A stretch of DNA of 62,402 bases from a virus. Its lineage: Duplodnaviria > Heunggongvirae > Uroviricota > Caudoviricetes. The stretch lies in IMG/VR virus record IMGVR_UViG_3300029219_000144; one strand, written 5' to 3'. The translations under genes were made by a program, and so were the position numbers. The notes below the pieces were generated by a model. The model was not told the origin of the DNA and did not search any database. It saw nothing but the letters and a program-made list of their open reading frames with translations. Of this stretch, positions 15,083-52,336 are shown one piece after another. Position 1 is the first letter of the stretch, and every line of letters begins with the position of its first letter.

Positions 15083-16642
15083 CTAATCTCGTTTCAGAAC
15101 TCCAAAATCGAATGCTCCATCAATAGGCAATACACCTTCTGCAAAGCCAGGTGTGGTGTCGATGATGTGTTTTCGCTCATAAGAGTGAGACAACAGGTAT
15201 TTGTTGCTAATGTCAATGAAATCAGTGATAAAACACACGTTTGCCTGATTTTTTTTGGCTCGTAAGCCACGACCGACACGCTGCCTCATTTCAACTTCTG
15301 CTTTCCCACCACCAGCAAGAATGACCGCACCAACGCTTGGCACATCAACACCGACATCCAGAATAGTCGAGCCTATTAAAACATCTATTTCTCCAGACGC
15401 TAAACTGTTCAGCTTTGCTTGCCTTGTCGCCTGGTTAGATTCCCCATAGATGAAGTCAACTCTAAGGCCGGACTCTTTCATCATTTCCATCAGGATTTGC
15501 CCGTGGCGTTTAAGACGAACCAGAGTCATACAATTGAGAGAATGTTGCTTATAGAGCAATGCTTCGCGAACAATGGCCTCGTTACGTCCCAAATTATACA
15601 CGATCCCCAACTGATAAGCCTTTTGGTAGGCGGTGCTCATACCAACTCTAAAATTGAGGTGTTTGTTGGCAAGTTCGGCCTTGATTCTGGCCTCGTCTGG
15701 CTTGTAGGCAACTTTATGATAAAGGAAGTACGGCTTTGCCAGAATGCCTCGATCAATCAGGTACTTTTCTGTGACTTTAATTTCAATTCGCCCGGCCACC
15801 GCCATCAGGCGCATGTTGGCTTCCGTCGAATCCTTCATGAACGGCGTGGCTGTAAGCGCCAGACGATAGTCTGCGTTCACACATAATCTGGCGATGTCAT
15901 AGAAATTTGAGCCTGAAGACTCATGCGCCTCTTCCAGAATAAGAAGAGAGACACTTGAAAGGAAGCGTTTCACCAACTCCCGACGTTTGAGGTGGTAGCT
16001 TTTCTTATCTGGTGTTGCATCGCGTGGTGGTTCTTCGAGGAAACTTGCAAGAGTTTGAACTGTAGCGACGTTGATATGTCGTGATACCTGGAACTCACCC
16101 GAGCCAATGACTCCAACCTTTTGGTCTTTTAACCACGGTTCGCCATTTTTGGCGCGGTAGTCGATGGATCTCTGGAAGTTTTCGGCCATTTGAAACATCA
16201 GAACAGAGCGGGTTGTTAAAAATAATGTCATTCGACCGATACGTGCAGCTGCTTTGCAGGCAACATTAGATTTCCCGCCACCAGTAGCGATCTGCGCAAT
16301 CATCATTCCCTCTCGAACCAGTGTTTCCACAGTCTGATCCTGATACGCATAATCAGGATTGTATGGGAATGGGTTAACCGCCGGATTTGGTTTTCCAAGC
16401 GCCGGGGCTTTGTCTTTGCGGATATGAACACATTTGATGCCCGCCTTGTTCAAGTTCGCCGCTACAGGCTTGGCAAAGCCAGCAGGGAACGAGTTTTTAC
16501 TCCAGTTGAACATCGTGCTTGTGCCCTTCCAGTCGCCAGTCTCGACTTCGTAGCTCAACATTTGCTGCACCAGTTGCTTTACCTTGTCATCTGCGCCAGA
16601 AATAAGCGCATTTACTGCGTTAGATACAATCCGAACAGTCAT
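15083..16642 (-). CDS. Superfamily 2 DEAD/DEAH-box type helicase
   Basis: Motif I QIATGGGKS, motif II LILEEAHES, motif VI QRVGRGLR in a 519-aa ORF. Confidence 0.8.
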   Translation of the reverse strand: MTVRIVSNAVNALISGADDKVKQLVQQMLSYEVETGDWKGTSTMFNWSKNSFPAGFAKPVAANLNKAGIKCVHIRKDKAPALGKPNPAVNPFPYNPDYAYQDQTVETLVREGMMIAQIATGGGKSNVACKAAARIGRMTLFLTTRSVLMFQMAENFQRSIDYRAKNGEPWLKDQKVGVIGSGEFQVSRHINVATVQTLASFLEEPPRDATPDKKSYHLKRRELVKRFLSSVSLLILEEAHESSGSNFYDIARLCVNADYRLALTATPFMKDSTEANMRLMAVAGRIEIKVTEKYLIDRGILAKPYFLYHKVAYKPDEARIKAELANKHLNFRVGMSTAYQKAYQLGIVYNLGRNEAIVREALLYKQHSLNCMTLVRLKRHGQILMEMMKESGLRVDFIYGESNQATRQAKLNSLASGEIDVLIGSTILDVGVDVPSVGAVILAGGGKAEVEMRQRVGRGLRAKKNQANVCFITDFIDISNKYLLSHSYERKHIIDTTPGFAEGVLPIDGAFDFGVLKRD

Positions 16643-16687
16643 AAACCTCTTTCCTTAGTGCCTTTTGTATGTTATTTGGCTATTATA

Positions 16688-16706
16688 ATAAGTAAGTGAT
16701 TACTTA
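16688..16706. promoter_or_regulatory. Palindrome TAAGTAAGTGATTACTTAG in the divergent promoter region between the helicase and ParB-like genes
   Basis: AAGTA..TACTT inverted repeat between divergently oriented genes. Confidence 0.45.
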
Positions 16707-17405
16707 GTGGATTGTAGCAATAAAATGGATGTAAAAATCACGATTTTGCAGGTTGATGTTGCCAACCTTCGCCCGAATACCTGGAACACCAATTCGGTTG
16801 GTGCGCAGAATTTTGAAAAACTGAAAGGTTCTATCGAAAAATTGGGCTTTTTTAAGCCAATTTTGGCTCGTGAACTTGAAGATGGATTTTTTGAAATCCT
16901 CGGCGGCGAACATCGCTGGCGTGCTGCTATTGAGCAAGGAATTTCAACGGTTCCGGTGCTTTCTGTGGGCAAAATTAGCGATGTCGTAGCTAAACAGATG
17001 TCACTGGTGGACAACGAGCGATACGGTGAAGACGACCAAATCGCATTGCAACGCTTCATTGAAGAAATTCAGTCAGAACTTGACTATCAACTGTCTGAAA
17101 TCGCCCCGTATGACGACGAAATCTCGATGGTTTTAGCAAAAGAGGCGGCAATCGACCTTGAAGCACTGGAGGCGTTGTCTCGTGGTAGTGATGAGCCTGT
17201 CGATACCGACAAACGAGAGAAAACCGAACGTGTGGGGGCGGAACATCAGACCATGCGCTTCAAAGTAACTTTCGATGCGTCAGATCGTGTTGCAGAAACC
17301 ATAAAAAACATCATCAAAGAGCAGGCTATTAACACCGGTAATGAAATGGAGAACGCTGGTGAGGCTCTGGTGTGGCTGGTCGACTACTACAAGGAGCGTA
17401 TGTAA
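16707..17405 (+). CDS. ParB N-terminal domain (ParB/Srx-like nuclease fold) protein 1
   Basis: GGEHRWRAA motif typical of the ParB N-terminal domain; GTG start at 16707 or ATG at 16725. Confidence 0.65.
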   Translation: MDCSNKMDVKITILQVDVANLRPNTWNTNSVGAQNFEKLKGSIEKLGFFKPILARELEDGFFEILGGEHRWRAAIEQGISTVPVLSVGKISDVVAKQMSLVDNERYGEDDQIALQRFIEEIQSELDYQLSEIAPYDDEISMVLAKEAAIDLEALEALSRGSDEPVDTDKREKTERVGAEHQTMRFKVTFDASDRVAETIKNIIKEQAINTGNEMENAGEALVWLVDYYKERM

Positions 17406-18073
17406 TGACCAAAAAGTTTGAAATCGTATATCGCGACCCGGCAGATCTTATTCCCTATGAGATGAATGCCAAAAAGCATGATGAACAGCAGATCCGAGAT
17501 CTGGCCGCAGCCATTAAAAAGCGCGGATTTGACCAGCCAATTACGGTCGATAAGAACGACGTAATTATTACTGGCCACGGCCGCCGTGAGGCTGCAATTT
17601 TTGCTGGACTTGAGCGCGTGCCGGTTATTGTTCGCGATGATCTCAGTGATGACGAGGTTCGTGCGAAGCGCCTTGAAGATAACCGACTTGCCAGCATTGA
17701 TTACGATGCAATTAAGCTACAGAAAGAGCTTGAGTCGCTTGTTCTGGACGATATCGAGGTTTTCGGCTTTGAAGAGCGTGAGTTGAATGTTCTCGTTGGC
17801 AGTATGACAGAAGAAATGGACACCGACTCGCTAGTTATCGATCTTGGCGAAGAAACTAAACGACAGAAGGATGAACACACCGAGATCAGTCGCGAAGTTG
17901 CAGCGGAAGAAGTACGTGTTGTCGACGTATTGGGCTTTAAAACGCTTCCTGCTGGCTCTGCCATTGTTGTTGGTGATTTGCTTGCCCACATGGAAGAAAT
18001 GACGGGAGAGAGCGGGGTAGACGCATTTGTGGCATATGCGGAGAAGATCTCTTCCGGGGAGATGGCTGCATGA
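17405..18073 (+). CDS. ParB N-terminal domain protein 2 (paralog)
   Basis: ITGHGRREAA motif; ATG overlaps the upstream stop (TAATG). Confidence 0.65.
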   Translation: MTKKFEIVYRDPADLIPYEMNAKKHDEQQIRDLAAAIKKRGFDQPITVDKNDVIITGHGRREAAIFAGLERVPVIVRDDLSDDEVRAKRLEDNRLASIDYDAIKLQKELESLVLDDIEVFGFEERELNVLVGSMTEEMDTDSLVIDLGEETKRQKDEHTEISREVAAEEVRVVDVLGFKTLPAGSAIVVGDLLAHMEEMTGESGVDAFVAYAEKISSGEMAA

Positions 18074-18735
18074 GCAAATACATCATCAACGTATCGTTTC
18101 AGACTCGCGTAAATAAAACCACGCGCACGCTGGAAATCGCCGAGTCGTTCGGGCTTGGTCTGGACGAAAAAGAGTGGACGCTTTACGACAAACTGGAGCT
18201 GGAAGTAAAGCAGGGCGATGTGGTGTACATCACCGGCCAATCCGGTTCAGGCAAATCCGTTGTGCTACGCGAGCTGCAACGCCAGATGAAGGATGAAGGG
18301 CTTTCTGTAGCTTCTATTGATGACTTTACCTTCGATAATGAGGTTAACGTCATTGACCAACTGGGCAAAACTACCAGTGATGCGCTTGGGTTGTTATCTA
18401 TGGCTGGTCTGAACGATGCATATATGTTTGTTCGCAAGCCTTCTGAAATGTCAGACGGCCAGAAATATCGTCTCAAGATTGCCAAACTGATTGAGTCAGG
18501 CGCTAAAGTATGGGCTGCTGACGAGTTCGGCGCTGTTCTCGACCGTGTAACCGCTCAGGTTGTGGCGTCTAACCTCCAGCGTGCCGCTCGAAAGGTTGGT
18601 GCGACGGTAATGGTGGCGACGACTCACGAAGACCTGAAGAACGCGCTGCGCCCTGATATGCAGATCACCAAGCACTACAAAGAACGCGTGAAGGTGGAAT
18701 ATCACAATGGTAGTCATGATGAGGTCCATTCATGA
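18070..18735 (+). CDS. Stand-alone ABC-type ATPase domain protein (221 aa)
   Basis: Walker A GQSGSGKS, signature-like SDGQKYR, Walker B VWAADEF, H-loop TTHE; start overlaps the upstream stop. Confidence 0.65.
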   Translation: MSKYIINVSFQTRVNKTTRTLEIAESFGLGLDEKEWTLYDKLELEVKQGDVVYITGQSGSGKSVVLRELQRQMKDEGLSVASIDDFTFDNEVNVIDQLGKTTSDALGLLSMAGLNDAYMFVRKPSEMSDGQKYRLKIAKLIESGAKVWAADEFGAVLDRVTAQVVASNLQRAARKVGATVMVATTHEDLKNALRPDMQITKHYKERVKVEYHNGSHDEVHS

Positions 18736-19622
18736 CGGACATCATCATTAAACGCTACCGCCCTGAAGAGTTTCCGCGTCATCTGGACTTTCTGGAGCGA
18801 ATGACTGTTACAAAGGGAACTGTAGAGGACTGGCACGCTCTTAAGTCGCTTCACTACAAAACAGACGGCAAACCTTTCGCGCCAACTTACTATCGCTGCG
18901 AACTTGATGACCGTCTGGTGGGCGTCGTGGTTATGGCTTACCCGAAACTACTGTTGGCACCTCGCCACCGCATGTTTCCTAAGTTGAAACCAACCACTAA
19001 TACCACCGTGGCTAACCAGTACTGGGGTCGGTACGTGAATAACAACTTTGCGGTGATCAGTCGCTCAGTTGTGGATACTCAGTATCGTGGCGTAGGCGTC
19101 TCTTATCGAATGATTAACCTGGTTAGCAGGATGCATGACCGGCCAATCATTGAGATCCAGTCCTCGATGAGCAAATACAATCCCTTCGCCATGAAAGCAG
19201 GGTTTAAGTTCATCCGCCCTGAGCGACCGAAGAGCTATGAAAGTGCACTGCGTGTGTTCCAGCGCCATTTCCGCTCCGACCCGGGTGATAACGAGGCGAT
19301 CGTCAAAGAGTTGTTCGCTATGAGCGAGTCTCGTCGTCGCCGTGCGCTGCGCGATTTGGTGGCGGACTACCATAAGAACAGTTCCCTGGCAAAAGCTGGG
19401 CGGAATCGTGGCACGACGATTCAGGACATTGCCGACAGTCTGGTGGACGAGGCCAGCATTGTGAAGCTGCTCAAGGACATTCACAACCTGAGCTTTACGT
19501 CTCCGTTGTATGGTGTGTACCGAAACCCTGACTTTGGCCGTCGACTGCCTGACACGCTGCCACTGCTGGCATTCGACAAACAACCTTTGGATAAACCGTT
19601 AGAAATTGCTTTACCGGCATAA
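18732..19622 (+). CDS. GNAT-like acyltransferase-fold protein with a C-terminal extension (296 aa)
   Basis: Motif-A-like QYRGVGVSYRMINLV (Q/R-x-x-G-x-G/A) after a hydrophobic strand LVGVVVMAY; start overlaps the upstream stop. Confidence 0.45.
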   Translation: MTDIIIKRYRPEEFPRHLDFLERMTVTKGTVEDWHALKSLHYKTDGKPFAPTYYRCELDDRLVGVVVMAYPKLLLAPRHRMFPKLKPTTNTTVANQYWGRYVNNNFAVISRSVVDTQYRGVGVSYRMINLVSRMHDRPIIEIQSSMSKYNPFAMKAGFKFIRPERPKSYESALRVFQRHFRSDPGDNEAIVKELFAMSESRRRRALRDLVADYHKNSSLAKAGRNRGTTIQDIADSLVDEASIVKLLKDIHNLSFTSPLYGVYRNPDFGRRLPDTLPLLAFDKQPLDKPLEIALPA

Positions 19623-19631
19623 GGATTTGCC

Positions 19632-19898
19632 ATGACGTTAACCGACAAACAAAAGGACATCATCAAAACGCTCAATCTCGGTTATGAGCGAGGTCATCTA
19701 CTTGATCTGGACGAATTGCTTGAAGTTTTGCCGTACAAGACAACAAAGCAAAGTATCCAGTTCTCAATTCGCGCTCTGATAAAAAAGGGGCTGGTGGAGA
19801 AAGGGCATACGCGCCAACGCAGTGACAATCGCTATCACCGCCGGACTCTTGGGTTAACCACTTTAGGTCGAGCCAAAGCGAAGTTACTGGTGATGTAA
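19632..19898 (+). CDS. small winged-helix-like DNA-binding protein (88 aa)
   Basis: Region KTTKQSIQFSIRALIKKGLVEKGH resembles a recognition helix plus wing; last gene of the operon. Confidence 0.4.
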   Translation: MTLTDKQKDIIKTLNLGYERGHLLDLDELLEVLPYKTTKQSIQFSIRALIKKGLVEKGHTRQRSDNRYHRRTLGLTTLGRAKAKLLVM

Positions 19899-19922: not shown

Positions 19923-19979
19923 CCTGCTTCCGTATATATAAATAATAAGTAACTTATTAAATATATATACGGAAGCAGG
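19923..19979. repeat. 57-bp near-perfect palindromic element (copy 1), CCTGCTTCCGTATATATA..TATATATACGGAAGCAGG
   Basis: 18-bp arms around an AT-rich palindromic core containing ATAAGTAACTTAT; second copy at 52280-52336. Confidence 0.65.
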
Positions 19980-20015
19980 CTTAGTAAGACATGCCAGACC
20001 TAATTAAACACCCCA

Positions 20016-20057
20016 GAAAACAAGTTGGTTAGCAGATGCAGTAAACAAGTTGTTTTA
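20016..20057. promoter_or_regulatory. Two adjacent operator-family palindromes (GAAAACAAGTTGGTT and TAAACAAGTTGTTTTA) upstream of terS
   Basis: Tandem copies about 45 nt before the ATG at 20096. Confidence 0.5.
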
Positions 20058-20095
20058 GAGCGCATGGACGCGCTCTGTGTGTTTTAGAGGGATCT

Positions 20096-20728
20096 ATGAC
20101 GGTCGAAAAAGACGAGGTAAAAACTCGCCTGACACCAGCGGAGTGGGCCGAAGCTGAAGCCAAATGGACGTCAGGCGAATATACACTCTCAAAGCTGGAG
20201 GAAGAGTACGGCATTCGTCGTGAAACACTCTCCAGACATTTCAAAAAGCGAGGATTAGAGAAAGGCGCGGACTCTGTTGGGAAGATGGTTCGTGAGTCTC
20301 TTAAATCTGACGCAGAGCTTCGCGCTAAAGCCCGTGCGGAAAAGATAGAAGAACGTCGTACACGTTATGACGGCTGGGCGTATGCGTTGGGGCAGATGGT
20401 GATGGTCGAAGTCACTACGGCCAAACGTGAGGGTAAGCCTTTAGGGGCGATTGAGGATTCTCTCAAGAGCTTACAGAGAGCCAGTAATACCCTTGCAAAA
20501 TGCTTTGAAGTTTCGTCCAAAGCATTGGGCATGGATCATGCGGAAAATGACGAGGAAGAAATTCCGAACCTGGTATTTGGTGAGCTTACGCCTTCCCAGG
20601 TGGCGAAATTACGTCAGGAAGACGACGAGCCTGAAATCATCGATGACGAATTGCTTGAGACGTTGGAAGAAGAAGCTCTAAGCGAATTTGATGCGACAGA
20701 TGATGGAATTGAAGGGGAGGACGAATAA
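20096..20728 (+). CDS. Terminase small subunit (predicted)
   Basis: 210-aa protein with an HTH-like N-terminus, acidic C-terminus, immediately upstream of terL. Confidence 0.55.
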   Translation: MTVEKDEVKTRLTPAEWAEAEAKWTSGEYTLSKLEEEYGIRRETLSRHFKKRGLEKGADSVGKMVRESLKSDAELRAKARAEKIEERRTRYDGWAYALGQMVMVEVTTAKREGKPLGAIEDSLKSLQRASNTLAKCFEVSSKALGMDHAENDEEEIPNLVFGELTPSQVAKLRQEDDEPEIIDDELLETLEEEALSEFDATDDGIEGEDE

Positions 20729-21984
20729 TGGCAATCCCGTCCTCGCTCAGTCTTGTGCAACTGCATTCTGGACAGATGAAAGTCTTCCAGTCTCCGCATC
20801 GATTTAAAGTTGTTTGTGCTGGTCGACGCTGGGGAAAATCCCGGTTGTCGATCTCCACTATTATTCGTGCGGCGGCAAAGGAAAAAAAGCAAAGAGTCTG
20901 GTATGTCGCTCCTACTTACCAGATGGCTCGCCAGATTTTGTGGGACGATCTACAGGAAGTTCTGCCTCGTAAGTGGGTTAGGAAAAAGAACGACACCACG
21001 ATGACAATCGTGTTGAAGAACGGTTCGGAGATCGCCCTCAAAGGTGCTGATAAGCCTGACACTCTGCGCGGCGTAGCGTTGCATTTTGTAGTGCTTGATG
21101 AATTTCAGGATATGAAGGCTGACACCTGGTACAAGGTGTTACGACCTACTCTTTCATCGACACGCGGCGGTGCACTGATCATTGGTACGCCAAAAGGCTT
21201 CTCGGAATTTCACAAACTGTGGACTATAGGCCAGAACGTAGAGCTGCAAAGAAAGGGACAGTGGAAGAGCTGGCAGTTTGTAACTGCCGATTCTCCGTTT
21301 GTACCTACGGCGGAAATTGAAGCTGCTAAGAACGATATGGACCCGAAATCGTTCGCTCAGGAGTACCTGGCGAGCTTTGAGAACATGTCCGGGCGCGTTT
21401 ACTACCCGTTCGATCGTAACGTGCATGTAAAACCGCTTCAGTTCAACCCTCGGTTGCCTATATGGGTAGGGCAGGACTTCAACATTGACCCGATGTCTTC
21501 AGTAATTTTGCAACCTCAGCCAAATGGTGAGCTATGGGCAATTGATGAATTGGTGCTCTTTTCCTCTAACACGGCAGAGGTTTGTGATGAGCTTGAGAGA
21601 CGCTTCTGGCGCTGGAAATCACAGATAACGGTATTTCCAGATCCGGCAGGTGCTTATCGCCAACATGCTCGCGGGGAGTCTGACGTCGACATATTCAAAG
21701 AGAAGGGATTCTTACGTGTCGATTATTCGAAAAAGCACCCGCCAATTGCGGATCGTGTTAATGCTGTTAACCGAATGCTGATGACCGCATCTGGAGATAT
21801 CCGGCTGTATATCGATCCGAAGTGCAAGCATTTGATTGATTCACTGGAAAAAGTCATCTACAAGCCTGGAACACGAGATATGGATAAGACAGGTGGCATT
21901 GAGCATAGTGCAGACGCATTGGGCTATCCAGTACATCGTAGGTATCCAGTCAAAAACCGTGTTATTCTTGGTGGTTCTCGATAG
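20728..21984 (+). CDS. Terminase large subunit
   Basis: Walker A-like CAGRRWGKS, Walker B VVLDEF, C-terminal nuclease-like region; followed by the portal gene. Confidence 0.75.
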   Translation: MAIPSSLSLVQLHSGQMKVFQSPHRFKVVCAGRRWGKSRLSISTIIRAAAKEKKQRVWYVAPTYQMARQILWDDLQEVLPRKWVRKKNDTTMTIVLKNGSEIALKGADKPDTLRGVALHFVVLDEFQDMKADTWYKVLRPTLSSTRGGALIIGTPKGFSEFHKLWTIGQNVELQRKGQWKSWQFVTADSPFVPTAEIEAAKNDMDPKSFAQEYLASFENMSGRVYYPFDRNVHVKPLQFNPRLPIWVGQDFNIDPMSSVILQPQPNGELWAIDELVLFSSNTAEVCDELERRFWRWKSQITVFPDPAGAYRQHARGESDVDIFKEKGFLRVDYSKKHPPIADRVNAVNRMLMTASGDIRLYIDPKCKHLIDSLEKVIYKPGTRDMDKTGGIEHSADALGYPVHRRYPVKNRVILGGSR

Positions 21985-28125: not shown

Positions 28126-28589
28126 AATACGATGCGCATCAGTTCAAACGTGCGGGGAATAGACTCAATAACAGCCAGAAAGCATTTAAGCGATATCTTA
28201 TTCGGGACATGGAAAAGCTGGCGCGTTTGGTTGAGCGTCTCAGCCGTGCAATGGCCCCGCTGGAAACCGGATCTCTGGAGACAGCCATCTTTGCCAGGGT
28301 GATTAAAGAAGGTTATTCAGGGCTGCGCATTGAGCTTTCTGTGTCTGGAGCAAAACCACGTCAGGGGCATCCGGGCGTAGAAGTCGGTGACTATGCTAAG
28401 TACATGGAGCTGGGTAAATACCGACTCGGTTATCTTTCTCGAATGAAGAACGTGACAAACCCACCAATTGCCGGTGTTAAACCTCGTGTTGGGCCACACT
28501 TTCTGGAAAGAGCGGTGGAAATTAGCGAGAAGCAGTTCTCAGAAGCGATTCTTGAGGCTGCCAGAAAAGCCGGTTTTACGAGAGGTTAA
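28116..28589 (+). CDS. putative head-tail joining protein (157 aa)
   Basis: ORF overlapping the upstream gene by 10 nt. Confidence 0.45.
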   Translation: MGLKYDAHQFKRAGNRLNNSQKAFKRYLIRDMEKLARLVERLSRAMAPLETGSLETAIFARVIKEGYSGLRIELSVSGAKPRQGHPGVEVGDYAKYMELGKYRLGYLSRMKNVTNPPIAGVKPRVGPHFLERAVEISEKQFSEAILEAARKAGFTRG

Positions 28590-28590
28590 T

Positions 28591-28974
28591 GTGTTTATTG
28601 AAGCGTTTGCAAGTTTGATGCAGAAGGCAAAGATTGGCACGGTCGGGACTGACATTTTCTGTCACTACTTGCCTGCCAATGTGAAATCTGGCGTCCTGCT
28701 TATTAACCCAAATACCGGTATCAGCATCGATCATGAGCTACAGGGCTTTTACCACGAATCATTCACAATAATTGTGCGTGGTTCGTCAATTACTACGACG
28801 GTTGAGAAAGCCAATAAAATCATTGAGATGTTTCCAGTAGAGGAAACGGAATCTGGTGGTGTTTATTTTCGACTGGTACGACCGATGGCGATGCCAATCA
28901 TTTATCCCAAAAATGATGGAGCATTAATAGAAGCAGGCATTCCTGTTGAATTTGCTGGCTATTTATTGAATTAA
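28591..28974 (+). CDS. putative tail completion/neck protein (127 aa, GTG start)
   Basis: GTG with GAGAGG RBS 5 nt upstream, in frame with track ORF 28468-28974. Confidence 0.4.
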   Translation: MFIEAFASLMQKAKIGTVGTDIFCHYLPANVKSGVLLINPNTGISIDHELQGFYHESFTIIVRGSSITTTVEKANKIIEMFPVEETESGGVYFRLVRPMAMPIIYPKNDGALIEAGIPVEFAGYLLN

Positions 28975-28982
28975 GTCAATCG

Positions 28983-28998
28983 GTAAGTATATACTTAC
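28983..28998. promoter_or_regulatory. Palindrome GTAAGTAtataTACTTAC upstream of the major tail gene
   Basis: Perfect inverted repeat of the TAAGTA/TACTTA family. Confidence 0.45.
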
Positions 28999-29048
28999 TG
29001 TTAGCGCAATGAATGCGTAGAATTAACGGAAAAAGGAGTTTTCCATCA

Positions 29049-47861: not shown

Positions 47862-48185
47862 ATGTCGAACGAGATGGCGGGCGTTACAACAGAGCAAGTT
47901 GAGCGTATTGCCGCGATCGTTGCTCGGGAGGTTGTTGGCAAATTAGGTAAAGAGCTACGTGAAGAAATTGGCCAGGAGGTCAATGATCAGCTGAAAACCT
48001 ACTTTGGTGATATGACCCCGGCGCAACATAGTATTCAACACTCCAACCTGGACAAACTCCTTAACCGGTTAGATTCCATCTCCAGTGGGTTCTTTGGCGG
48101 CATTGTTTCTAAAATAACGTCGTTCATTATTACTGCACTGCTTTTGGGGTTAGCCGCGTATGGCGTAAAAAATGGACTGCAATAA
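47862..48185 (+). CDS. putative holin-like protein with a single C-terminal transmembrane segment (107 aa)
   Basis: GGAGG RBS 6 nt upstream of MSNEMAGV; hydrophobic C-terminus FFGGIVSKITSFIITALLLGLAAYGV; first gene of the lysis block. Confidence 0.4.
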   Translation: MSNEMAGVTTEQVERIAAIVAREVVGKLGKELREEIGQEVNDQLKTYFGDMTPAQHSIQHSNLDKLLNRLDSISSGFFGGIVSKITSFIITALLLGLAAYGVKNGLQ

Positions 48186-48198
48186 CAGGAGATCAAGG

Positions 48199-48891
48199 AT
48201 GAAGACTCCGAGAGGCATTCGTAATAATAACCCCGGTAATCTTGATAAAGGATCACCGTGGCAAGGTCTGGTTGCGAATCCAGACGAACCGCGCTTTTGC
48301 ACGTTTAAAGACCCTGTTTGGGGGATTCGTGCGCTGGCGGTGACTCTAATTACCTACCACGACAAACGTCGCGCAAAAGACGGCTCAAGTATCGATACCA
48401 TTCGTGAAGTTATTGAACGTTGGGCACCGCCGAATGAAAACAACACTGACGCCTACATTAATGAGGTGTCTAAAGCCGTTGGTGTAACCGCAGACATGAT
48501 CATCGATCTGCATGATTACGACATCCTTCGACCTTTGGTTGAGGCAATCATTCGCCACGAGAATGGCCGAGGCCCGCTAAAAACGCTGAACACCTGGTAT
48601 GCGGCAGAAGTTATTGAGGAAGGTCTGCGTCGAGCTGGCGTTGTTAAGCCGGTGAAAACCGTGAAGGCTGTTCCTGTAACTAAAGAAACCGCAGGCGCAA
48701 CTGTTACAGCAGGTATTGGTCTGGCGCAGCTGGCCGATGTTATGCCGCAGGTTTCCGCTGCTATGGATAAAGCACAAGGTCATATCTCTAGCGGGGATAC
48801 AGTACGCATCATCTTCGGTATTGCCACTATTGTTGTGGCAGGATTCATTGCCTGGTCGCAGGTAAGAAAACACCAGAAAGGGATGGTCTAA
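48199..48891 (+). CDS. putative endolysin-like protein with a C-terminal membrane anchor (230 aa)
   Basis: Conserved-looking N-terminal GIRNNNPGNL motif, C-terminal TM IIFGIATIVVAGFIAW; located between the holin-like and spanin genes. Confidence 0.4.
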   Translation: MKTPRGIRNNNPGNLDKGSPWQGLVANPDEPRFCTFKDPVWGIRALAVTLITYHDKRRAKDGSSIDTIREVIERWAPPNENNTDAYINEVSKAVGVTADMIIDLHDYDILRPLVEAIIRHENGRGPLKTLNTWYAAEVIEEGLRRAGVVKPVKTVKAVPVTKETAGATVTAGIGLAQLADVMPQVSAAMDKAQGHISSGDTVRIIFGIATIVVAGFIAWSQVRKHQKGMV

Positions 48892-48892
48892 T

Positions 48893-49144
48893 ATGCTAGG
48901 CAGCCTGATGACAAAGCTAAAAGTTGCTTTGATTACGCTGGCTGCCGTTCTTTTCGTTCTTGTCGGCGCTTACACGATGGGCGGGAATGCGGCGCGACGA
49001 GCAATGGAAGAGAAGGCAAAACAGGAAGACAGAAAACGACTTCAAAACACAGTGAAAGTGGTGAATGAGACGAGCAGTAAAATACGTCAGAAAGATGCTT
49101 CTGCCGTTCATCGTGAGTTGTATGATAAGTGGGTGCGTCATTAA
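48893..49144 (+). CDS. i-spanin (Rz-like inner-membrane spanin)
   Basis: N-terminal TM (LKVALITLAAVLFVLVGAY) then charged periplasmic domain; o-spanin ORF embedded in another frame. Confidence 0.6.
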   Translation: MLGSLMTKLKVALITLAAVLFVLVGAYTMGGNAARRAMEEKAKQEDRKRLQNTVKVVNETSSKIRQKDASAVHRELYDKWVRH

Positions 49145-50429: not shown

Positions 50430-51098
50430 ATGACCAAGATCTTTGTGGTTGGCGGCACAAAGGGCGGGCCTGGCAAATCCACCGTTGCCCAGCAAATTGC
50501 CGTTTGCCTGAAAGTCAAAAAGAAGAAGAAGGTTTATATTACCGATATAGATATTCAGCGCACGACAACGAGCTGGTGTGAAGACCGTCGACAGAACGAA
50601 GACCTTGAGCTGATTCCTTTTGCATACGTTCAGGATGACATCATTAAGCACCTAAAATCGCTTCAGGGTAGAGCTGAGTTTGTAGTGGTAGATGCTGGTG
50701 GCTTCGACTCCGAAATTCAGCGACAAGCGATGCTGATGGCTGACGTTATCATTATCCCGCTGCGTCCTAAGCGTCGTGATTTGAAATCTTTACGTGACAT
50801 CGATCCTATTATCGACAATGTTCGCAATGTAAACGATAAAGTGAAGGTCCGCGCGGTCATGAACCAGTGCCCGGCTTTGCCATCACAAGTGTCTCGCATT
50901 CTGGCGGCTAAAGAGATTGTCGAGACGTTTGGCATCGAGTCTGCGCCAGTCAATCTATATAACCGCAACGTCTACGATGATGCGGAAGAGTCTGGTCGTT
51001 CTATCTTCGAAATGACCGGTAGCGAGCGCGACAAAAAGGCGGAAGCCGAGTTTGAAGAATTTGTAGATTATCTGTTGAGTCTGGAGGAAGAAGAATAA
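50430..51098 (+). CDS. ParA/ParF-type partition ATPase (small, type Ib-like)
   Basis: Deviant Walker A GGTKGGPGKST in a 222-aa protein. Confidence 0.75.
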   Translation: MTKIFVVGGTKGGPGKSTVAQQIAVCLKVKKKKKVYITDIDIQRTTTSWCEDRRQNEDLELIPFAYVQDDIIKHLKSLQGRAEFVVVDAGGFDSEIQRQAMLMADVIIIPLRPKRRDLKSLRDIDPIIDNVRNVNDKVKVRAVMNQCPALPSQVSRILAAKEIVETFGIESAPVNLYNRNVYDDAEESGRSIFEMTGSERDKKAEAEFEEFVDYLLSLEEEE

Positions 51099-51457
51099 TG
51101 TCCATGAAAATGGGTGACCTAGCAAAGCGCAAAGAGCCTGATGCACCGGCTAAGAACACAACTCCTTTGCGCCAACCAGTCAGACCACAGGGACGCCCGA
51201 CTCGTGGCAAAGAGAAAATTAAAAGCCGCACAATGTCACTGGAAGACGAATACTTCGAACTGCTGGAGATGATGAAGTTCATCCCTCGCTTCGAGAAATT
51301 CACCCGTTCTGACGTGATTCGCGCAGCCATTTTCCATCTGGCAGAGAAGTCACCGCAGGAAATCGAGGACATCGTGAAACTTAACGAGGCAATCACAGCT
51401 GCCGATGTCACGATGCGTACCGATGAAATTAAACGAGAGTTGATGAAGAAAGGTTGA
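51098..51457 (+). CDS. small partition partner protein (ParG/RHH-like, 119 aa)
   Basis: Start overlaps the parA stop; basic N-terminal tail and helix-rich C-terminus. Confidence 0.5.
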   Translation: MSMKMGDLAKRKEPDAPAKNTTPLRQPVRPQGRPTRGKEKIKSRTMSLEDEYFELLEMMKFIPRFEKFTRSDVIRAAIFHLAEKSPQEIEDIVKLNEAITAADVTMRTDEIKRELMKKG

Positions 51458-51501
51458 TAAGAGAAGGCGTGATTAGACGCCTTCTCTTAAAAGGTATATT
51501 T

Positions 51502-52257
51502 ATGCTTTACAAATATGTTGGAAGTAGCGTCCCGGAAGACACAATAAAGTATTTAAAGTATTACTTAGAAGATGGGAAAATTCGAGCAACTCGTCCGAAT
51601 GATTTCAACGATCCTGCCGAGTTTAAAGTTAATTTTGATTATGATGCTGATATAGACGCCATTAAGAAAAGATTTTTTGAGCTTTGGCCTAATCATCACA
51701 ATGATGAATTTGAACGCTGGTTATTGAGTCAAACAGAACATAGTCGCAGTTTTGATAACTATATGATTAGAACAACTTTTCTGCAGTGTCGGGGAGTTAT
51801 TTGTTTGACAAAAAGACCAGATAATTATCTTATGTGGTCGCATTATGCGCATTCTCACTCTGGTTTTTGCATCGGATTTGATGATGGTTTTATAAATGCG
51901 TTTGATGATGGTTTTTTTGTTCGCGGTGAGGTCAAATATTCCTCTGATGTTCCGGTTGTAAATTTTTTTACCGACTCAGATAAAGAGATTGCAGCGGCTC
52001 TTTGCCTAAATAAAAGCGATGTCTGGGAATATGAAGAGGAGGTTAGAATCGTAACCGAGAATTGTGGCGTGAAATTATTTGATAAATCCTTAATTAAGGA
52101 AATAACAATAGGTTGTAAGGCTAGCAGTCAACTTCAAAATTATGTTCATCAACTATTTGATTCAGGTATCGAAATCTACAAAATGAAGTGCCCTCCAGGA
52201 TCGTATAAGCTGGAAAAAATAAGATTAGAGAAAGATACTGATTTTCTTGGATACTAG
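51502..52257 (+). CDS. DUF2971-like protein (252 aa from MLYKY; alternative start 51454)
   Basis: N-terminal LYKY, RPNDFNDPAEF and later SHYAHSHSGFCIGF motifs resemble the DUF2971 family as recalled; AT-rich gene. Confidence 0.5.
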   Translation: MLYKYVGSSVPEDTIKYLKYYLEDGKIRATRPNDFNDPAEFKVNFDYDADIDAIKKRFFELWPNHHNDEFERWLLSQTEHSRSFDNYMIRTTFLQCRGVICLTKRPDNYLMWSHYAHSHSGFCIGFDDGFINAFDDGFFVRGEVKYSSDVPVVNFFTDSDKEIAAALCLNKSDVWEYEEEVRIVTENCGVKLFDKSLIKEITIGCKASSQLQNYVHQLFDSGIEIYKMKCPPGSYKLEKIRLEKDTDFLGY

Positions 52258-52279: not shown

Positions 52280-52336
52280 GACCTGCTTCTGTATATAATA
52301 AGTAAATTAGTATTTATATATATACAGAAGCAGGTC
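52280..52336. repeat. 57-bp palindromic element (copy 2), GACCTGCTTCTGTATATA..TATATACAGAAGCAGGTC, followed by TTTT
   Basis: Arms nearly identical to copy 1 at 19923-19979; core contains TAATAAGTAAATTAGTA. Confidence 0.65.

What the first reader, a model, noticed from the sequence alone, without database searches (positions are those of the whole stretch)
16707..19898. Unassigned five-gene operon upstream of terS: two ParB-NTD paralogs, a stand-alone ABC-type ATPase, a GNAT-like protein and a winged-helix protein
Five tightly coupled plus-strand genes with overlapping stops and starts: two ~230-aa ParB N-terminal-domain proteins (GGEHRWRAA, ITGHGRREAA), a 221-aa ABC-type ATPase (GQSGSGKS, SDGQKYR, VWAADEF), a 296-aa protein with a GNAT-like motif A (QYRGVGV) and an 88-aa wHTH-like protein. 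I do not recognise this combination as a described phage module. It is not the element's partition system, which is separate at 50430-51457. ParB/Srx-fold proteins bind and sometimes cleave or modify nucleic acid, and acyltransferase-fold enzymes such as phage Mu Mom modify DNA bases, so the operon could be a DNA-modification, anti-restriction or packaging-associated system; this is hypothesis only.
Basis: partly seen in the sequence, partly recalled or inferred. Interest (0 to 1): 0.72.

Follow-up and report, generated by a model that had tools for sequence, protein, structure and literature searches.

The report
ParB–ABC ATPase–GNAT module beside terminase
The five genes are real and belong to an SSU5-type phage-plasmid; three of them (ParB-like protein, ABC-type ATPase, GNAT acyltransferase) form one conserved, uncharacterised machine that sits next to the DNA-packaging genes in very different bacterial and archaeal viruses and most likely modifies viral DNA chemically.

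Summary
There are five translationally coupled plus-strand genes: ParB1, ParB2, an ABC-type ATPase, a GNAT-fold protein and a winged-helix protein. All are under purifying selection. They lie between a divergent UvsW-like helicase and terS/TerL.

The window is about 98% identical to Escherichia phage Cyrano and 85% identical to Salmonella phage SSU5. The block occurs in 757 PLSDB plasmids, so the genes are known, but I found no described function.

New findings:
- The ABC and GNAT genes are a split form of a widespread single-chain ABC–GNAT protein (the COG2401 architecture).
- ParB–ABC–GNAT triple fusions exist.
- Other fusions carry family B DNA polymerase or a TFIIB repeat.
- ParB→ABC→GNAT→terS→TerL, or TerL→ABC-GNAT, recurs in phages of Proteobacteria, Firmicutes, Actinobacteria and Spirochaetes, and in viral contigs whose closest genome relatives are archaeal.
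- An ASCH domain (an N4-acetylcytidine amidohydrolase family) joins the module in some phages.
- The ParB2-type domain is the one fused to DNA methyltransferases in many phages.

Best reading (about 0.4): a ParB-guided, ATP-driven acyl-CoA transferase acts on phage DNA around packaging, as an analogue of ParB–methyltransferase fusions and Mom. The main rivals are a terminase accessory factor and a protein acetyltransferase. It is not a partition system.

The parts
15083..16642 (-). Divergently transcribed UvsW-like SF2 helicase. It is context, but it is syntenic with the block in all SSU5-type relatives.
   Evidence: Pfam ResIII/DEAD/Helicase_C and phrog_16. The same divergent arrangement occurs in L003, L004, L005 and nickie.
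16689..16706 (.). Inverted repeat TAAGTAA-N4-TTACTTA in the 64-bp helicase/ParB1 intergenic region. It is a candidate operator; its ATAATAAGTAA motif (from 16685) overlaps the left end of the repeat.
   Evidence: Sequence. The motif has 3 exact copies in the window (16685, 19942, 52295), and 5 matches at up to 1 mismatch against about 1 expected. Any function is inferred only.
16725..17405 (+). ParB1, a ParB/Srx N-terminal-domain protein of the 'a type' (GGEHRWRAA). It is acidic (pI 4.6). An alternative GTG start lies at 16707.
   Evidence: Pfam ParB_N E 3e-13; phrog_723 E 2e-79; PDB Spo0J/ParB/Noc E 1e-9 to 1e-5. pI.
17405..18073 (+). ParB2, a ParB/Srx N-terminal-domain protein of the 'b type' (GHGRREAA). 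This is the type found at the N-terminus of phage ParB-methyltransferase fusions.
   Evidence: Pfam ParB_N E 1.5e-8; phrog_930 E 1e-112; phrog_498 'DNA methyltransferase' E 5e-32 (N-terminal part only); PADLOC MTase_II E 3e-17. Found in 278 phage records, many under methylase features.
18070..18735 (+). Stand-alone ABC-type ATPase, a nucleotide-binding domain only. Walker A, signature, Walker B and H-loop are intact. There is no permease partner.
   Evidence: Pfam ABC_tran E 1e-12; phrog_293. PDB hits are ABC nucleotide-binding domains. The motifs are invariant in the fused family.
18732..19622 (+). GNAT-fold acyltransferase-like protein. The GNAT domain spans about residues 20-165 and is followed by a conserved helical/beta C-terminal domain. 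It is basic (pI 9.8). It is the C-terminal half of a split ABC-GNAT protein.
19632..19898 (+). 88-aa stand-alone winged-helix DNA-binding protein (pI 10.2). Seen only in the SSU5/nickie-type relatives among the contexts examined.
19923..19979 (.). 57-bp AT-rich near-perfect palindrome between the block and terS. The SSU5 GenBank record is cut inside it (checked), and the Cyrano record ends at the equivalent offset. It could be an operon-end hairpin, a packaging or genome-end site, or a protein-binding site.
   Evidence: I1; 28-nt arms, 93% complementary. A second copy at 52282-52334 has a compensatory C/T-G/A change. SSU5 record junction. Large inverted repeats lie in the same gap in L003-L005.
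20056..20077 (+). Terminator-like GC hairpin plus T-run just upstream of terS.
   Evidence: This is a consensus match only.
20096..21984 (+). terS-like gene (20096-20728) and large terminase (20728-21984). These are the conserved downstream neighbours of the module.
   Evidence: phrog_867; Terminase_6N/6C. Cyrano annotation.

Best explanation
The block encodes one multi-subunit, DNA-directed acyltransferase machine.

Proposed roles of the parts:
- ParB1 and ParB2 are ParB/Srx-fold NTP-binding subunits. They load or position the enzyme on DNA.
- The ABC-type ATPase and the GNAT-fold protein are the two halves of a split ABC-GNAT enzyme. ATP-driven dimerisation of the ABC domains presents the substrate to the GNAT active site, which transfers an acyl group from an acyl-CoA.
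- The 88-aa winged-helix protein is a lineage-specific DNA-binding regulator or site selector.

The most likely substrate is the phage's own replicated DNA. The mark would be an exocyclic-amine acylation, for example an N4-acylcytosine type, written about the time the DNA is packaged. That would make the module a functional analogue of phage ParB-methyltransferase fusions and of Mu Mom, and the mark would protect the DNA in the next host.

Shown here: the folds and motifs, the fusions, the synteny and the purifying selection.
Inferred: the complex, the use of acyl-CoA, DNA as the substrate, the chemistry of the mark, the timing and the anti-restriction benefit.
For: (1) One machine.
- 64 of 65 long homologues of the GNAT protein carry a specific homologue of the window's ABC ATPase (E down to 1e-62) directly N-terminal.
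- Four cluster representatives of 666-699 aa add a ParB domain in front, giving ParB-ABC-GNAT in one chain.
- The window genes are joined by ATGA/TAATG overlaps.

(2) DNA-centred.
- Other fusions carry a family B DNA polymerase (P0205, inside a viral replication module), a TFIIB repeat, or an intein in the ABC domain.
- The GNAT protein and the wHTH are basic, pI 9.8 and 10.2.

(3) Same genomic niche as phage DNA methyltransferases.
- The ParB2-type domain is the N-terminal domain of ParB-MTase fusions (phrog_498 E 5e-32; PADLOC MTase_II E 3e-17; 278 phage records).
- The module sits either next to the terminase or in a replication module.

(4) Catalytic competence.
- A conserved R-x-x-G-x-S/A loop plus invariant H41-Y42-K43, R78-H79, E141 and others.
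- Walker A, signature, Walker B and H-loop are invariant.
- ABC and GNAT are the most constrained genes: 52/6 and 92/4 synonymous/non-synonymous differences.

(5) Hint at the chemistry.
- An ASCH-domain gene follows the GNAT in an Oenococcus phage. One follows the GNAT, or directly follows the ABC gene where no GNAT was detected, in 3 of 20 P335-like loci. One also follows a distant ABC-GNAT fusion.
- ASCH proteins are N4-acetylcytidine / N4-acylcytosine amidohydrolases (PMC6972931; bioRxiv 10.64898/2026.02.27.708502).
- Gordonia phages add a formyltransferase-like gene to the module.

(6) Precedents.
- Phage T-dioxygenases can require a cognate ParB-like partner (bioRxiv 10.1101/2025.08.14.668559).
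- DpdB is described as a ParB-like ATPase that drives base insertion into DNA (PMC12839542).
Against: - No modified base is reported for SSU5-type phages or any other carrier in the library searched.
- The GNAT fold matches are generic. There is no specific similarity to Mom or to TmcA/NAT10.
- Both ParB proteins are strongly acidic (pI 4.5) and have no detectable HTH. Their DNA binding is therefore assumed, not shown.
- The very tight linkage to the terminase fits a packaging role equally well. TerL lies within two genes upstream in at least 43 of 78 distant loci, and ParB_N is not among the listed neighbour families there.
- The ASCH association is facultative, and ASCH genes may well sit elsewhere in phage genomes too (not quantified here).
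- An acetyltransferase recruited to DNA could instead act on a DNA-bound protein.
Confidence: 0.4

Rival explanations
1. Terminase accessory machine. The ParB proteins recognise or nick DNA at or near the pac/cos region, for example the palindrome at 19923-19979. The ABC-GNAT protein assists initiation, concatemer processing or terminase regulation, with or without acetylating a packaging protein. DNA chemistry is unchanged.
For: - The module is immediately upstream of terS/TerL in SSU5-type phages, Leptospira LE4, Gordonia Axumite, Lactococcus P335, an Oenococcus phage, Pseudoalteromonas SL25 and the P0220 triple fusion.
- In 78 distant viral loci, whose closest genome relatives are archaeal MAGs, TerL is one of the two genes upstream in at least 43. 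In L161 the order is tail genes-terS-TerL-ABC/GNAT.
- 27 of 80 contigs end within 400 bp of the gene, and the SSU5 record ends inside the adjacent palindrome (Cyrano's at the same offset). This suggests a genome end or packaging site next to the module.
- ParB-family proteins can nick DNA (cited in PMC12839542).
- P1 needs DNA modification at pac for packaging (PMC12707154).
Against: - In other viruses the ABC-GNAT gene lies in replication modules, or is fused to DNA polymerase B, far from the terminase.
- terS is present alongside the module in most lineages, so the module does not replace it.
- No known packaging system uses an acyltransferase.
- The positions next to the terminase and at the genome end are also where phages commonly carry DNA methyltransferases and cargo genes.
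Confidence: 0.22
2. DNA-tethered protein acetyltransferase. The machine is brought to DNA by ParB/wHTH and acetylates a DNA-bound protein. Candidates are host nucleoid proteins, a defence nuclease, or a phage replication or packaging protein. The purpose would be takeover or anti-defence.
For: - The top structural neighbours are protein and small-molecule N-acetyltransferases such as Naa10, RimI and Gcn5.
- Fusions to DNA-binding or DNA-acting domains (ParB, TFIIB, PolB) would equally serve to recruit a protein-modifying enzyme to chromatin.
- From my own knowledge: GNAT anti-CRISPR AcrVA5, and Eco1 acetylation of the SMC3 ABC head.
Against: - The ASCH and formyltransferase-like neighbours point to nucleobase chemistry.
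- Conservation from archaeal to bacterial viruses argues against a host-specific protein target.
- The niche is shared with DNA methyltransferases.
Confidence: 0.15
3. RNA/tRNA cytidine acetyltransferase, analogous to TmcA/NAT10. An ATPase plus GNAT writes ac4C on a host or phage tRNA to tune translation late in infection.
For: - TmcA is likewise an ATPase plus a GNAT. ASCH proteins erase tRNA ac4C (bioRxiv 10.64898/2026.02.27.708502).
- SSU5-type phages carry tRNAs and a MetRS.
- Nickie has tRNA-Met next to the block.
- Gordonia phages add an Fmt-like formyltransferase domain.
- A few neighbouring genes match the NAT10/TmcA helicase domain.
Against: - The ParB, PolB and TFIIB fusions and the terminase linkage are DNA contexts.
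- No TmcA helicase, DUF1726 or tRNA-binding domain was found in the window proteins.
- There is no specific structural similarity to TmcA.
Confidence: 0.07
4. Plasmid-partition or purely regulatory ParB system for the prophage-plasmid.
For: Two ParB-family proteins and a P-loop ATPase lie in one operon. PHROG and GenBank labels say 'ParB-like partition protein'.
Against: - The ATPase is an ABC nucleotide-binding domain, not a ParA.
- A ParA-type system sits at 50430-51457.
- No HTH_ParB domain was detected.
- The block is conserved in an integrated prophage within a 3.27-Mb contig and in phages isolated on their hosts, such as nickie and RHEph10.
- It is fused to a GNAT in hundreds of families.
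Confidence: 0.03

Closest known systems
Phage ParB-domain-DNA methyltransferase fusions (phrog_498; PADLOC MTase_II PDLC03229)
   Same: ParB2 is homologous to their N-terminal ParB domain (E 5e-32 and 3e-17). They occupy the same genomic slot, just upstream of terS or at the genome end.
   Different: There is no methyltransferase domain. The catalytic partner is an ABC ATPase plus a GNAT, encoded as separate genes. The ParB is duplicated.
COG2401-type 'ABC-type ATPase fused to a predicted acetyltransferase domain' (the label JGI and the Cyrano record give to homologues)
   Same: The window's ABC and GNAT proteins are specific homologues of the two halves, in the same order.
   Different: Here the protein is split into two overlapping genes. 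In relatives, small ORFs are inserted at the split. The family has no described function in the literature searched.
Phage Mu Mom (GNAT-fold DNA adenine methylcarbamoylase)
   Different: There is no sequence homology. Mom works alone, without an ATPase or ParB. The window protein keeps a CoA-type R-x-x-G-x-S/A loop and has an extra C-terminal domain.
ParB-like partners of DNA-modifying enzymes: clade E phage T-dioxygenases with a cognate ParB, and DpdB with DpdA
   Same: A ParB/Srx-fold NTPase is an obligate or stimulating partner of an enzyme that alters bases in DNA (PMC12839542).
   Different: The enzymes are different (dioxygenase, transglycosylase). Those systems have no ABC ATPase or GNAT.
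TmcA/NAT10 RNA cytidine acetyltransferases with ASCH erasers
   Same: The logic is the same: ATPase plus GNAT. ASCH-domain genes are attached to the module in some phages.
   Different: The ATPase is an ABC nucleotide-binding domain, not the TmcA helicase domain. There is no tRNA-binding domain. The context is DNA, not RNA.
DndB/DndD of the phosphorothioation system
   Same: A ParB-superfamily protein is paired with an ABC ATPase in a DNA-modification operon (PMC10853773).
   Different: [quoted passage not shown] PADLOC finds no Dnd match apart from a weak P-loop hit. There are no DndA/C/E equivalents.

Membership tests
ParB/Srx N-terminal domain superfamily (PF02195) | Significant match to the ParB_N profile | tested here: met
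   ParB1 49.9 bits and ParB2 35.0 bits against a cut-off of 26.3. PDB Spo0J/ParB/Noc hits.
ParB/Srx N-terminal domain superfamily (PF02195) | Box II GxxRxxA arginine patch and box III (E/D)N..R nucleotide-binding motifs | tested here: met
   ParB1 has GGEHRWRAA and VDNERY. ParB2 has TGHGRREAA and EDNRL. Both are conserved in orthologues. NTP binding itself was not testable.
Plasmid/chromosome partition ParABS (type Ia ParB) | Central HTH DNA-binding domain and C-terminal dimerisation domain of partition ParB | tested here: not met
   No HTH_ParB or other HTH hit. The C-terminal halves are acidic, pI 4.1-4.3.
Plasmid/chromosome partition ParABS (type Ia ParB) | Adjacent ParA (Walker-type deviant) ATPase | tested here: not met
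   The adjacent ATPase is ABC_tran. The ParA/MipZ-type gene is 33 kb away at 50430-51098.
ABC transporter | Walker A, ABC signature, Walker B and H-loop in the nucleotide-binding domain | tested here: met
   GQSGSGKS, SDGQ, AADEF and TTHED are present. They are invariant in 34 fused relatives.
ABC transporter | Cognate membrane permease domain or gene | tested here: not met
   No membrane protein lies in the operon here or in relatives. The conserved partner is a GNAT. The 'ABC transporter' annotation is misleading.
GNAT acyl-CoA N-acyltransferase superfamily | GNAT fold | tested here: met
GNAT acyl-CoA N-acyltransferase superfamily | Sequence match above the Pfam gathering score | tested here: not met
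   Acetyltransf_10 scores 14.4 bits against a cut-off of 23.6. The short GNAT in the Oenococcus and P335 modules does pass.
GNAT acyl-CoA N-acyltransferase superfamily | Q/R-x-x-G-x-G/A pyrophosphate-binding loop; acyl-CoA binding | tested here: inconclusive
   R119-G-V-G122-V-S124 is present, with S or A at the last position across the family. Binding cannot be tested with these tools.
COG2401-type ABC-GNAT fusion family | Specific homology of both halves, contiguous and in the order ABC then GNAT | tested here: met
   64 of 65 long representatives have both halves (ABC E to 1e-62, GNAT E to 1e-24). In the window the two halves overlap by 4 nt.
Mom-type DNA modification | Sequence or specific structural relationship to Mom | tested here: not met
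Mom-type DNA modification | Modified base in virion DNA | not testable with these tools
   Needs LC-MS of virion DNA. No report was found.
TmcA/NAT10 cytidine acetyltransferase | DUF1726 + TmcA helicase domain + GNAT + tRNA-binding domain | tested here: not met
ParB-methyltransferase fusion | ParB N-domain of the same subfamily | tested here: met
   phrog_498 E 5e-32 over profile positions 29-179 of 633. PDLC03229 E 3e-17 over 16-149 of 436.
ParB-methyltransferase fusion | SAM-dependent methyltransferase domain | tested here: not met
   No MTase domain is found in any of the five proteins.
Known anti-phage defence systems (PADLOC) | Significant match of the components to one system | tested here: not met
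   Only P-loop or ParB-domain level hits were found. The GNAT protein has none.
MarR-type winged-helix regulators | wHTH fold | tested here: met
MarR-type winged-helix regulators | N- and C-terminal dimerisation helices of MarR (about 140 aa) | tested here: not met
   The protein is only 88 aa. It resembles stand-alone wHTH proteins such as AF1382, TubR and STIV F93.

The most novel reading that the evidence does not exclude
The ParB-ABC-GNAT machine is the writer of a previously unrecognised, ATP-dependent N-acyl (for example N4-acetyl-deoxycytidine-type) modification of viral genomic DNA. The mark is laid down at the packaging stage. It is widespread in tailed viruses of both Bacteria and Archaea, and the ASCH-domain proteins in some modules act as its eraser or reader.
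Probability: 0.2. Interest if true: 0.9.

Novelty: new variant of a known kind. Interest (0 to 1): 0.7.

Why it matters
- SSU5/pHCM2/pMT1-type phage-plasmids are common in clinical Enterobacteriaceae, with 757 PLSDB records including Klebsiella, E. coli, Yersinia and Salmonella. Yet this strongly constrained operon next to their packaging genes has no known function.
- The comparative evidence turns five vaguely labelled genes ('partition protein', 'ABC transporter', 'hypothetical') into one defined, testable machine with a three-part core. The same core was found in phages infecting Proteobacteria, Firmicutes, Actinobacteria and Spirochaetes, in Planctomycetota genomes, and in archaeal genomes and related viral contigs.
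- If it writes an acyl mark on DNA, it would add a new enzyme class and possibly a new base to the phage anti-restriction repertoire. It would also extend the emerging rule that ParB-fold NTPases are partners of DNA-modifying enzymes.
- It could explain sequencing or restriction anomalies in such phages.
- If it is instead a terminase accessory, it would be a new and widespread component of viral DNA packaging.
- Either way, the 'ABC transporter' and 'partition protein' annotations propagated in databases are misleading.

Tried and rejected
- NCBIfam and PADLOC scans of all five proteins gave only generic domain-level hits.
- A PDB sequence search with the GNAT protein found nothing meaningful; the best hit was AlkD at E about 1.
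- Literature searches found no description of the module. Terms tried were 'SSU5'+'ParB', 'ABC-type ATPase fused'+'acetyltransferase', 'COG2401', combinations of 'ParB-like'/ABC/acetyltransferase/terminase, 'SSU5'+'cohesive ends', and N4-acetyl-deoxycytosine in phages.
- The first viral-contig scan, with the GNAT alignment, returned only close relatives (80-100% identity) and added nothing on distant context.
- A scan with the triple fusion found one locus only.
- The afdb50 fold library was unavailable.
- The sigma-70 promoter scan found nothing in either intergenic region, and its counts were below shuffle expectation.
- I did not identify which neighbouring proteins gave the five weak NAT10/TmcA-helicase hits.
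- I considered and rejected a partition role, an ABC-transporter role and membership of a known defence system (see membership tests).
- I considered an SMC/kleisin-like DNA-organising complex (ParB loader + ABC head + wHTH). I set it aside because the ATPase lacks a coiled coil and is a transporter-type nucleotide-binding domain.
A ribbon-helix-helix guess for them is untested.

Full report
**What is there.** Between 16707 and 19898 the + strand carries five ORFs exactly as described.
- ParB1 spans 16707-17405. Its likelier start is ATG 16725, as annotated in phage Cyrano and as the alignment with ParB2 suggests.
- ParB2 most likely starts at ATG 17405 and ends at 18073 (222 aa).
- The ABC-type ATPase spans 18070-18735.
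- A 296-aa protein spans 18732-19622.
- An 88-aa protein spans 19632-19898.

The junctions are TAATG, ATGA and ATGA overlaps, then a 9-nt gap, which indicates translational coupling.

A UvsW-like helicase (15083-16642) is transcribed divergently from a 64-bp intergenic region. A 197-bp gap separates the block from the terS-like gene (20096), TerL (20728) and the portal gene.

**Domain checks.**
- Both ParB proteins pass Pfam ParB_N and match solved Spo0J/ParB/Noc N-domains. They keep the GxxRxxA and (D/E)N..R nucleotide-binding motifs. They are 33% identical to each other over the N-domain.
- Neither ParB has a detectable HTH, and both are very acidic, pI about 4.5.
- The ATPase is a transporter-type ABC nucleotide-binding domain with all catalytic motifs. 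It has no permease partner.
- Against SSU5, synonymous codon differences far outnumber non-synonymous ones in every gene. The ratio is most extreme for ABC (52/6) and GNAT (92/4).

**Where the window comes from.**
- The block is 98% identical to Escherichia phage Cyrano, 85% to Salmonella phage SSU5 and 81% to Klebsiella phage-plasmids.
- It occurs in 757 PLSDB plasmids, with at least 80% of the query covered in 714. The hosts are Klebsiella, Escherichia, Enterobacter, Yersinia, Salmonella and others.
- Public annotations read 'ParB-like partition protein', 'ABC transporter', 'MK0520 ... ABC-type ATPase fused to a predicted acetyltransferase domain' or 'hypothetical'.
- All five proteins fall in PHROG families: 723, 930, 293, 886 and 900.

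The genes themselves are therefore already known. Their function is not. NCBIfam and PADLOC give nothing specific, and six literature searches found no description of the module.

**Co-conservation.** The order helicase(-) / ParB / ParB / ABC / [0-3 small inserted ORFs] / GNAT / small wHTH-sized ORF / terS-like / TerL / portal is kept at about 45% protein identity in:
- a phage-like region on a 295-kb Ectothiorhodospira contig;
- a prophage inside a 3.27-Mb metagenomic contig;
- marine (Tara-sourced) contigs;
- the ~110-kb phages Pseudomonas nickie, Rhizobium RHEph10 and Stenotrophomonas ANB28, whose records list the isolation host.

It also excludes a plasmid-partition role, because a ParA/MipZ-type ATPase sits separately at 50430-51098.

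**The ABC and GNAT genes are one split protein.**
- A profile of the GNAT protein searched against 1.84 billion representative proteins found 887 relatives.
- Of the 65 listed relatives that are at least 340 aa long, 64 carry a specific homologue of the window's ABC ATPase (E down to 1e-62) directly in front of the GNAT-like domain.
- In 34 aligned fusions, Walker A, the signature motif, Walker B, the H-loop, the GNAT loop and a C-terminal Y..NP motif are invariant or nearly so.
- Four representatives of 666-699 aa add a ParB domain at the N-terminus, giving ParB-ABC-GNAT in one chain.
- Other fusions carry a complete family B DNA polymerase (P0205, 1260 aa, seen on 24 contigs and inside a viral replication module), a TFIIB repeat, or an intein within the ABC domain.

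These Rosetta-stone fusions show that ParB, ABC and GNAT act together. Their fusion partners are DNA-acting or DNA-binding domains.

**Linkage to the terminase across very distant viruses.**
- Leptospira phage LE4: ParB-like, then an ABC+GNAT fusion, then small ORFs, then TerL.
- Gordonia phage Axumite, genes 1-4: ParB-like, ABC+GNAT fusion, a formyltransferase-domain protein, terminase.
- Lactococcus phage P335: ParB, ABC, GNAT, Orf26, terS, TerL.
- Oenococcus phage unk162: ParB (mis-annotated as a methylase), ABC, GNAT, an ASCH-domain protein, then the end of the genome record.
- All 20 P335-like viral contigs examined have ParB→ABC. Where the contig extends far enough, a terS-sized ORF, a TerL-sized ORF and a portal-sized ORF follow. 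A GNAT was detected in 14 of the 20 and an ASCH gene in 3.
- The triple fusion P0220 sits directly upstream of a terS-sized ORF, then TerL, portal and MuF.
- In 78 further viral loci with the fused protein, the large terminase is one of the two genes upstream in at least 43. ParB_N is not among the listed neighbour families, and the downstream genes are heterogeneous.
- 27 of 80 such contigs end within 400 bp of the gene.
- The closest genomic relatives of this clade are Bathyarchaeia and Nitrososphaeria MAGs, followed by Planctomycetota.
- In other viruses the gene lies in replication modules instead: a Nonlabens phage and an SPbeta-like contig.

**Interpretation.** The ParB2-type domain is found in 278 phage records. 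It is often the N-terminal domain of DNA methyltransferases or the first gene of the genome. The module therefore occupies the same two genomic niches as phage DNA methyltransferases: beside the terminase or inside the replication module. In effect an ABC-GNAT enzyme takes the place of the methyltransferase domain.

Precedents exist for ParB-fold proteins as obligate partners of DNA base-modifying enzymes:
- phage T-dioxygenases (bioRxiv 10.1101/2025.08.14.668559);
- DpdB with DpdA (PMC12839542).

Mu Mom is a precedent for a GNAT-fold DNA modifier.

The recurrent but facultative ASCH gene hints at N4-acylcytosine chemistry, because ASCH proteins are N4-acetylcytidine / N4-acylcytosine amidohydrolases (PMC6972931; bioRxiv 10.64898/2026.02.27.708502).

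I therefore favour a ParB-guided, ATP-driven acyl transfer onto phage DNA around the time of packaging, at a confidence of about 0.4. What is shown is the anatomy, the fusions, the synteny and the constraint. The complex, the cofactor, the substrate, the timing and the benefit are all inferred.

**Rivals.**
- Terminase accessory (0.22). The terminase linkage is strong enough that a non-modifying packaging role is a serious alternative.
- DNA-tethered protein acetyltransferase (0.15).
- TmcA-like tRNA acetylation (0.07).
- Partition system (0.03). This is contradicted.

The points against the favoured reading are:
- no modified base is reported for any carrier;
- the GNAT similarity is generic;
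- the ParB proteins are acidic and lack an HTH.

**Verdict.** The genes are known and common. However, the three-part ParB-ABC-GNAT machine, its split and fused forms, its association with the terminase and its spread across bacterial and archaeal viruses were not described in anything I could find. I rate it as a new variant of a known kind (ParB-partnered phage DNA modification), with interest 0.7. The most novel reading not excluded is a new ATP-dependent N-acyl DNA modification, with probability about 0.2.

Noticed in passing
window 19923-19979 and 52282-52334: Two copies of a ~55-bp AT-rich near-perfect palindrome (CCTGCTTC[C/T]GTATATA ... TATATAC[G/A]GAAGCAGG). The two copies differ by a compensatory change in both arms. 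The first lies between the block and terS. The SSU5 GenBank record is cut inside it (checked), and the Cyrano record ends at the same offset after the wHTH stop. The second follows the ORF at 51454-52257. It could be a terminator hairpin, a packaging or genome-end site, or a protein-binding site.
   Followed up: partly
window 16685-16695, 19942-19952, 52295-52305: The motif ATAATAAGTAA occurs three times exactly. With up to 1 mismatch there are 5 matches against about 1 expected. One copy is just before ParB1, where it overlaps the left end of the inverted repeat TAAGTAA-N4-TTACTTA. The other two lie at the centres of the two palindromes. It is a candidate site for the wHTH or ParB proteins.
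   Followed up: partly
window 20014-20055: Direct repeat CAGAAAACAAGTTGGTT / CAGTAAACAAGTTGTTT just upstream of terS, followed by a terminator-like hairpin at 20056-20077. A similar pair is present in SSU5. It could be a terS recognition element or a late-promoter element.
   Followed up: no
window 18735/18732 junction; L002 7994-8248; L003 8961-9999; L004 9705-9995; L005 9598-9997; L009 5646-5981: The ABC/GNAT junction is an insertion hot spot in relatives. It holds 0 ORFs here, one 85-aa ORF in SSU5, and up to three small ORFs elsewhere, including Phage_gp49_66 and RyR-domain ORFs. Such insertions may be what split an ancestrally fused gene.
   Followed up: no
P0205 / L013-L014; P0166; P0154: Unusual fusions of the ABC-GNAT protein were found: with a full family B DNA polymerase (1260 aa, inside a viral replication module), with a LAGLIDADG intein inside the ABC domain, and with a C-terminal TFIIB repeat.
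   Followed up: partly
L099-L178 (IMG/VR) and L208-L216 (GTDB): A clade of viral contigs has the order terS-TerL-ABC/GNAT, and the contig often ends right after the gene. Its closest genome relatives are Bathyarchaeia and Nitrososphaeria MAGs. This suggests archaeal tailed viruses with the terminase at the end of the structural block.
   Followed up: partly
window 16725-18073: Both ParB-like proteins are strongly acidic (pI 4.5; C-terminal halves 4.1-4.3), whereas the GNAT and wHTH proteins are basic (9.8 and 10.2). The acidic tails may contact the basic partners rather than DNA.
   Followed up: no
window about 48150-48985 (- strand), by correspondence with Cyrano 28190-29024: Cyrano annotates a KacT-type GNAT toxin and its antitoxin next to the lysis genes. 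This would be a second, unrelated GNAT in the element. The window coordinates are inferred from the Cyrano map and were not checked directly.
   Followed up: no
window 51098-52257: The 119-aa ORF after the ParA-type gene has no Pfam match; Cyrano labels it 'RelE/ParE putative toxin'. The next ORF is a DUF2971 protein. The centromere-binding partner of the partition system is therefore not identified.
   Followed up: no
L011 1805-2452 (Gordonia phage Axumite gene 3): A formyltransferase-domain protein (Formyl_trans_N, E 1e-8), annotated as a 'tRNA-methyltransferase', sits between the ABC-GNAT fusion and the terminase. This adds another group-transfer enzyme to the module.
   Followed up: no
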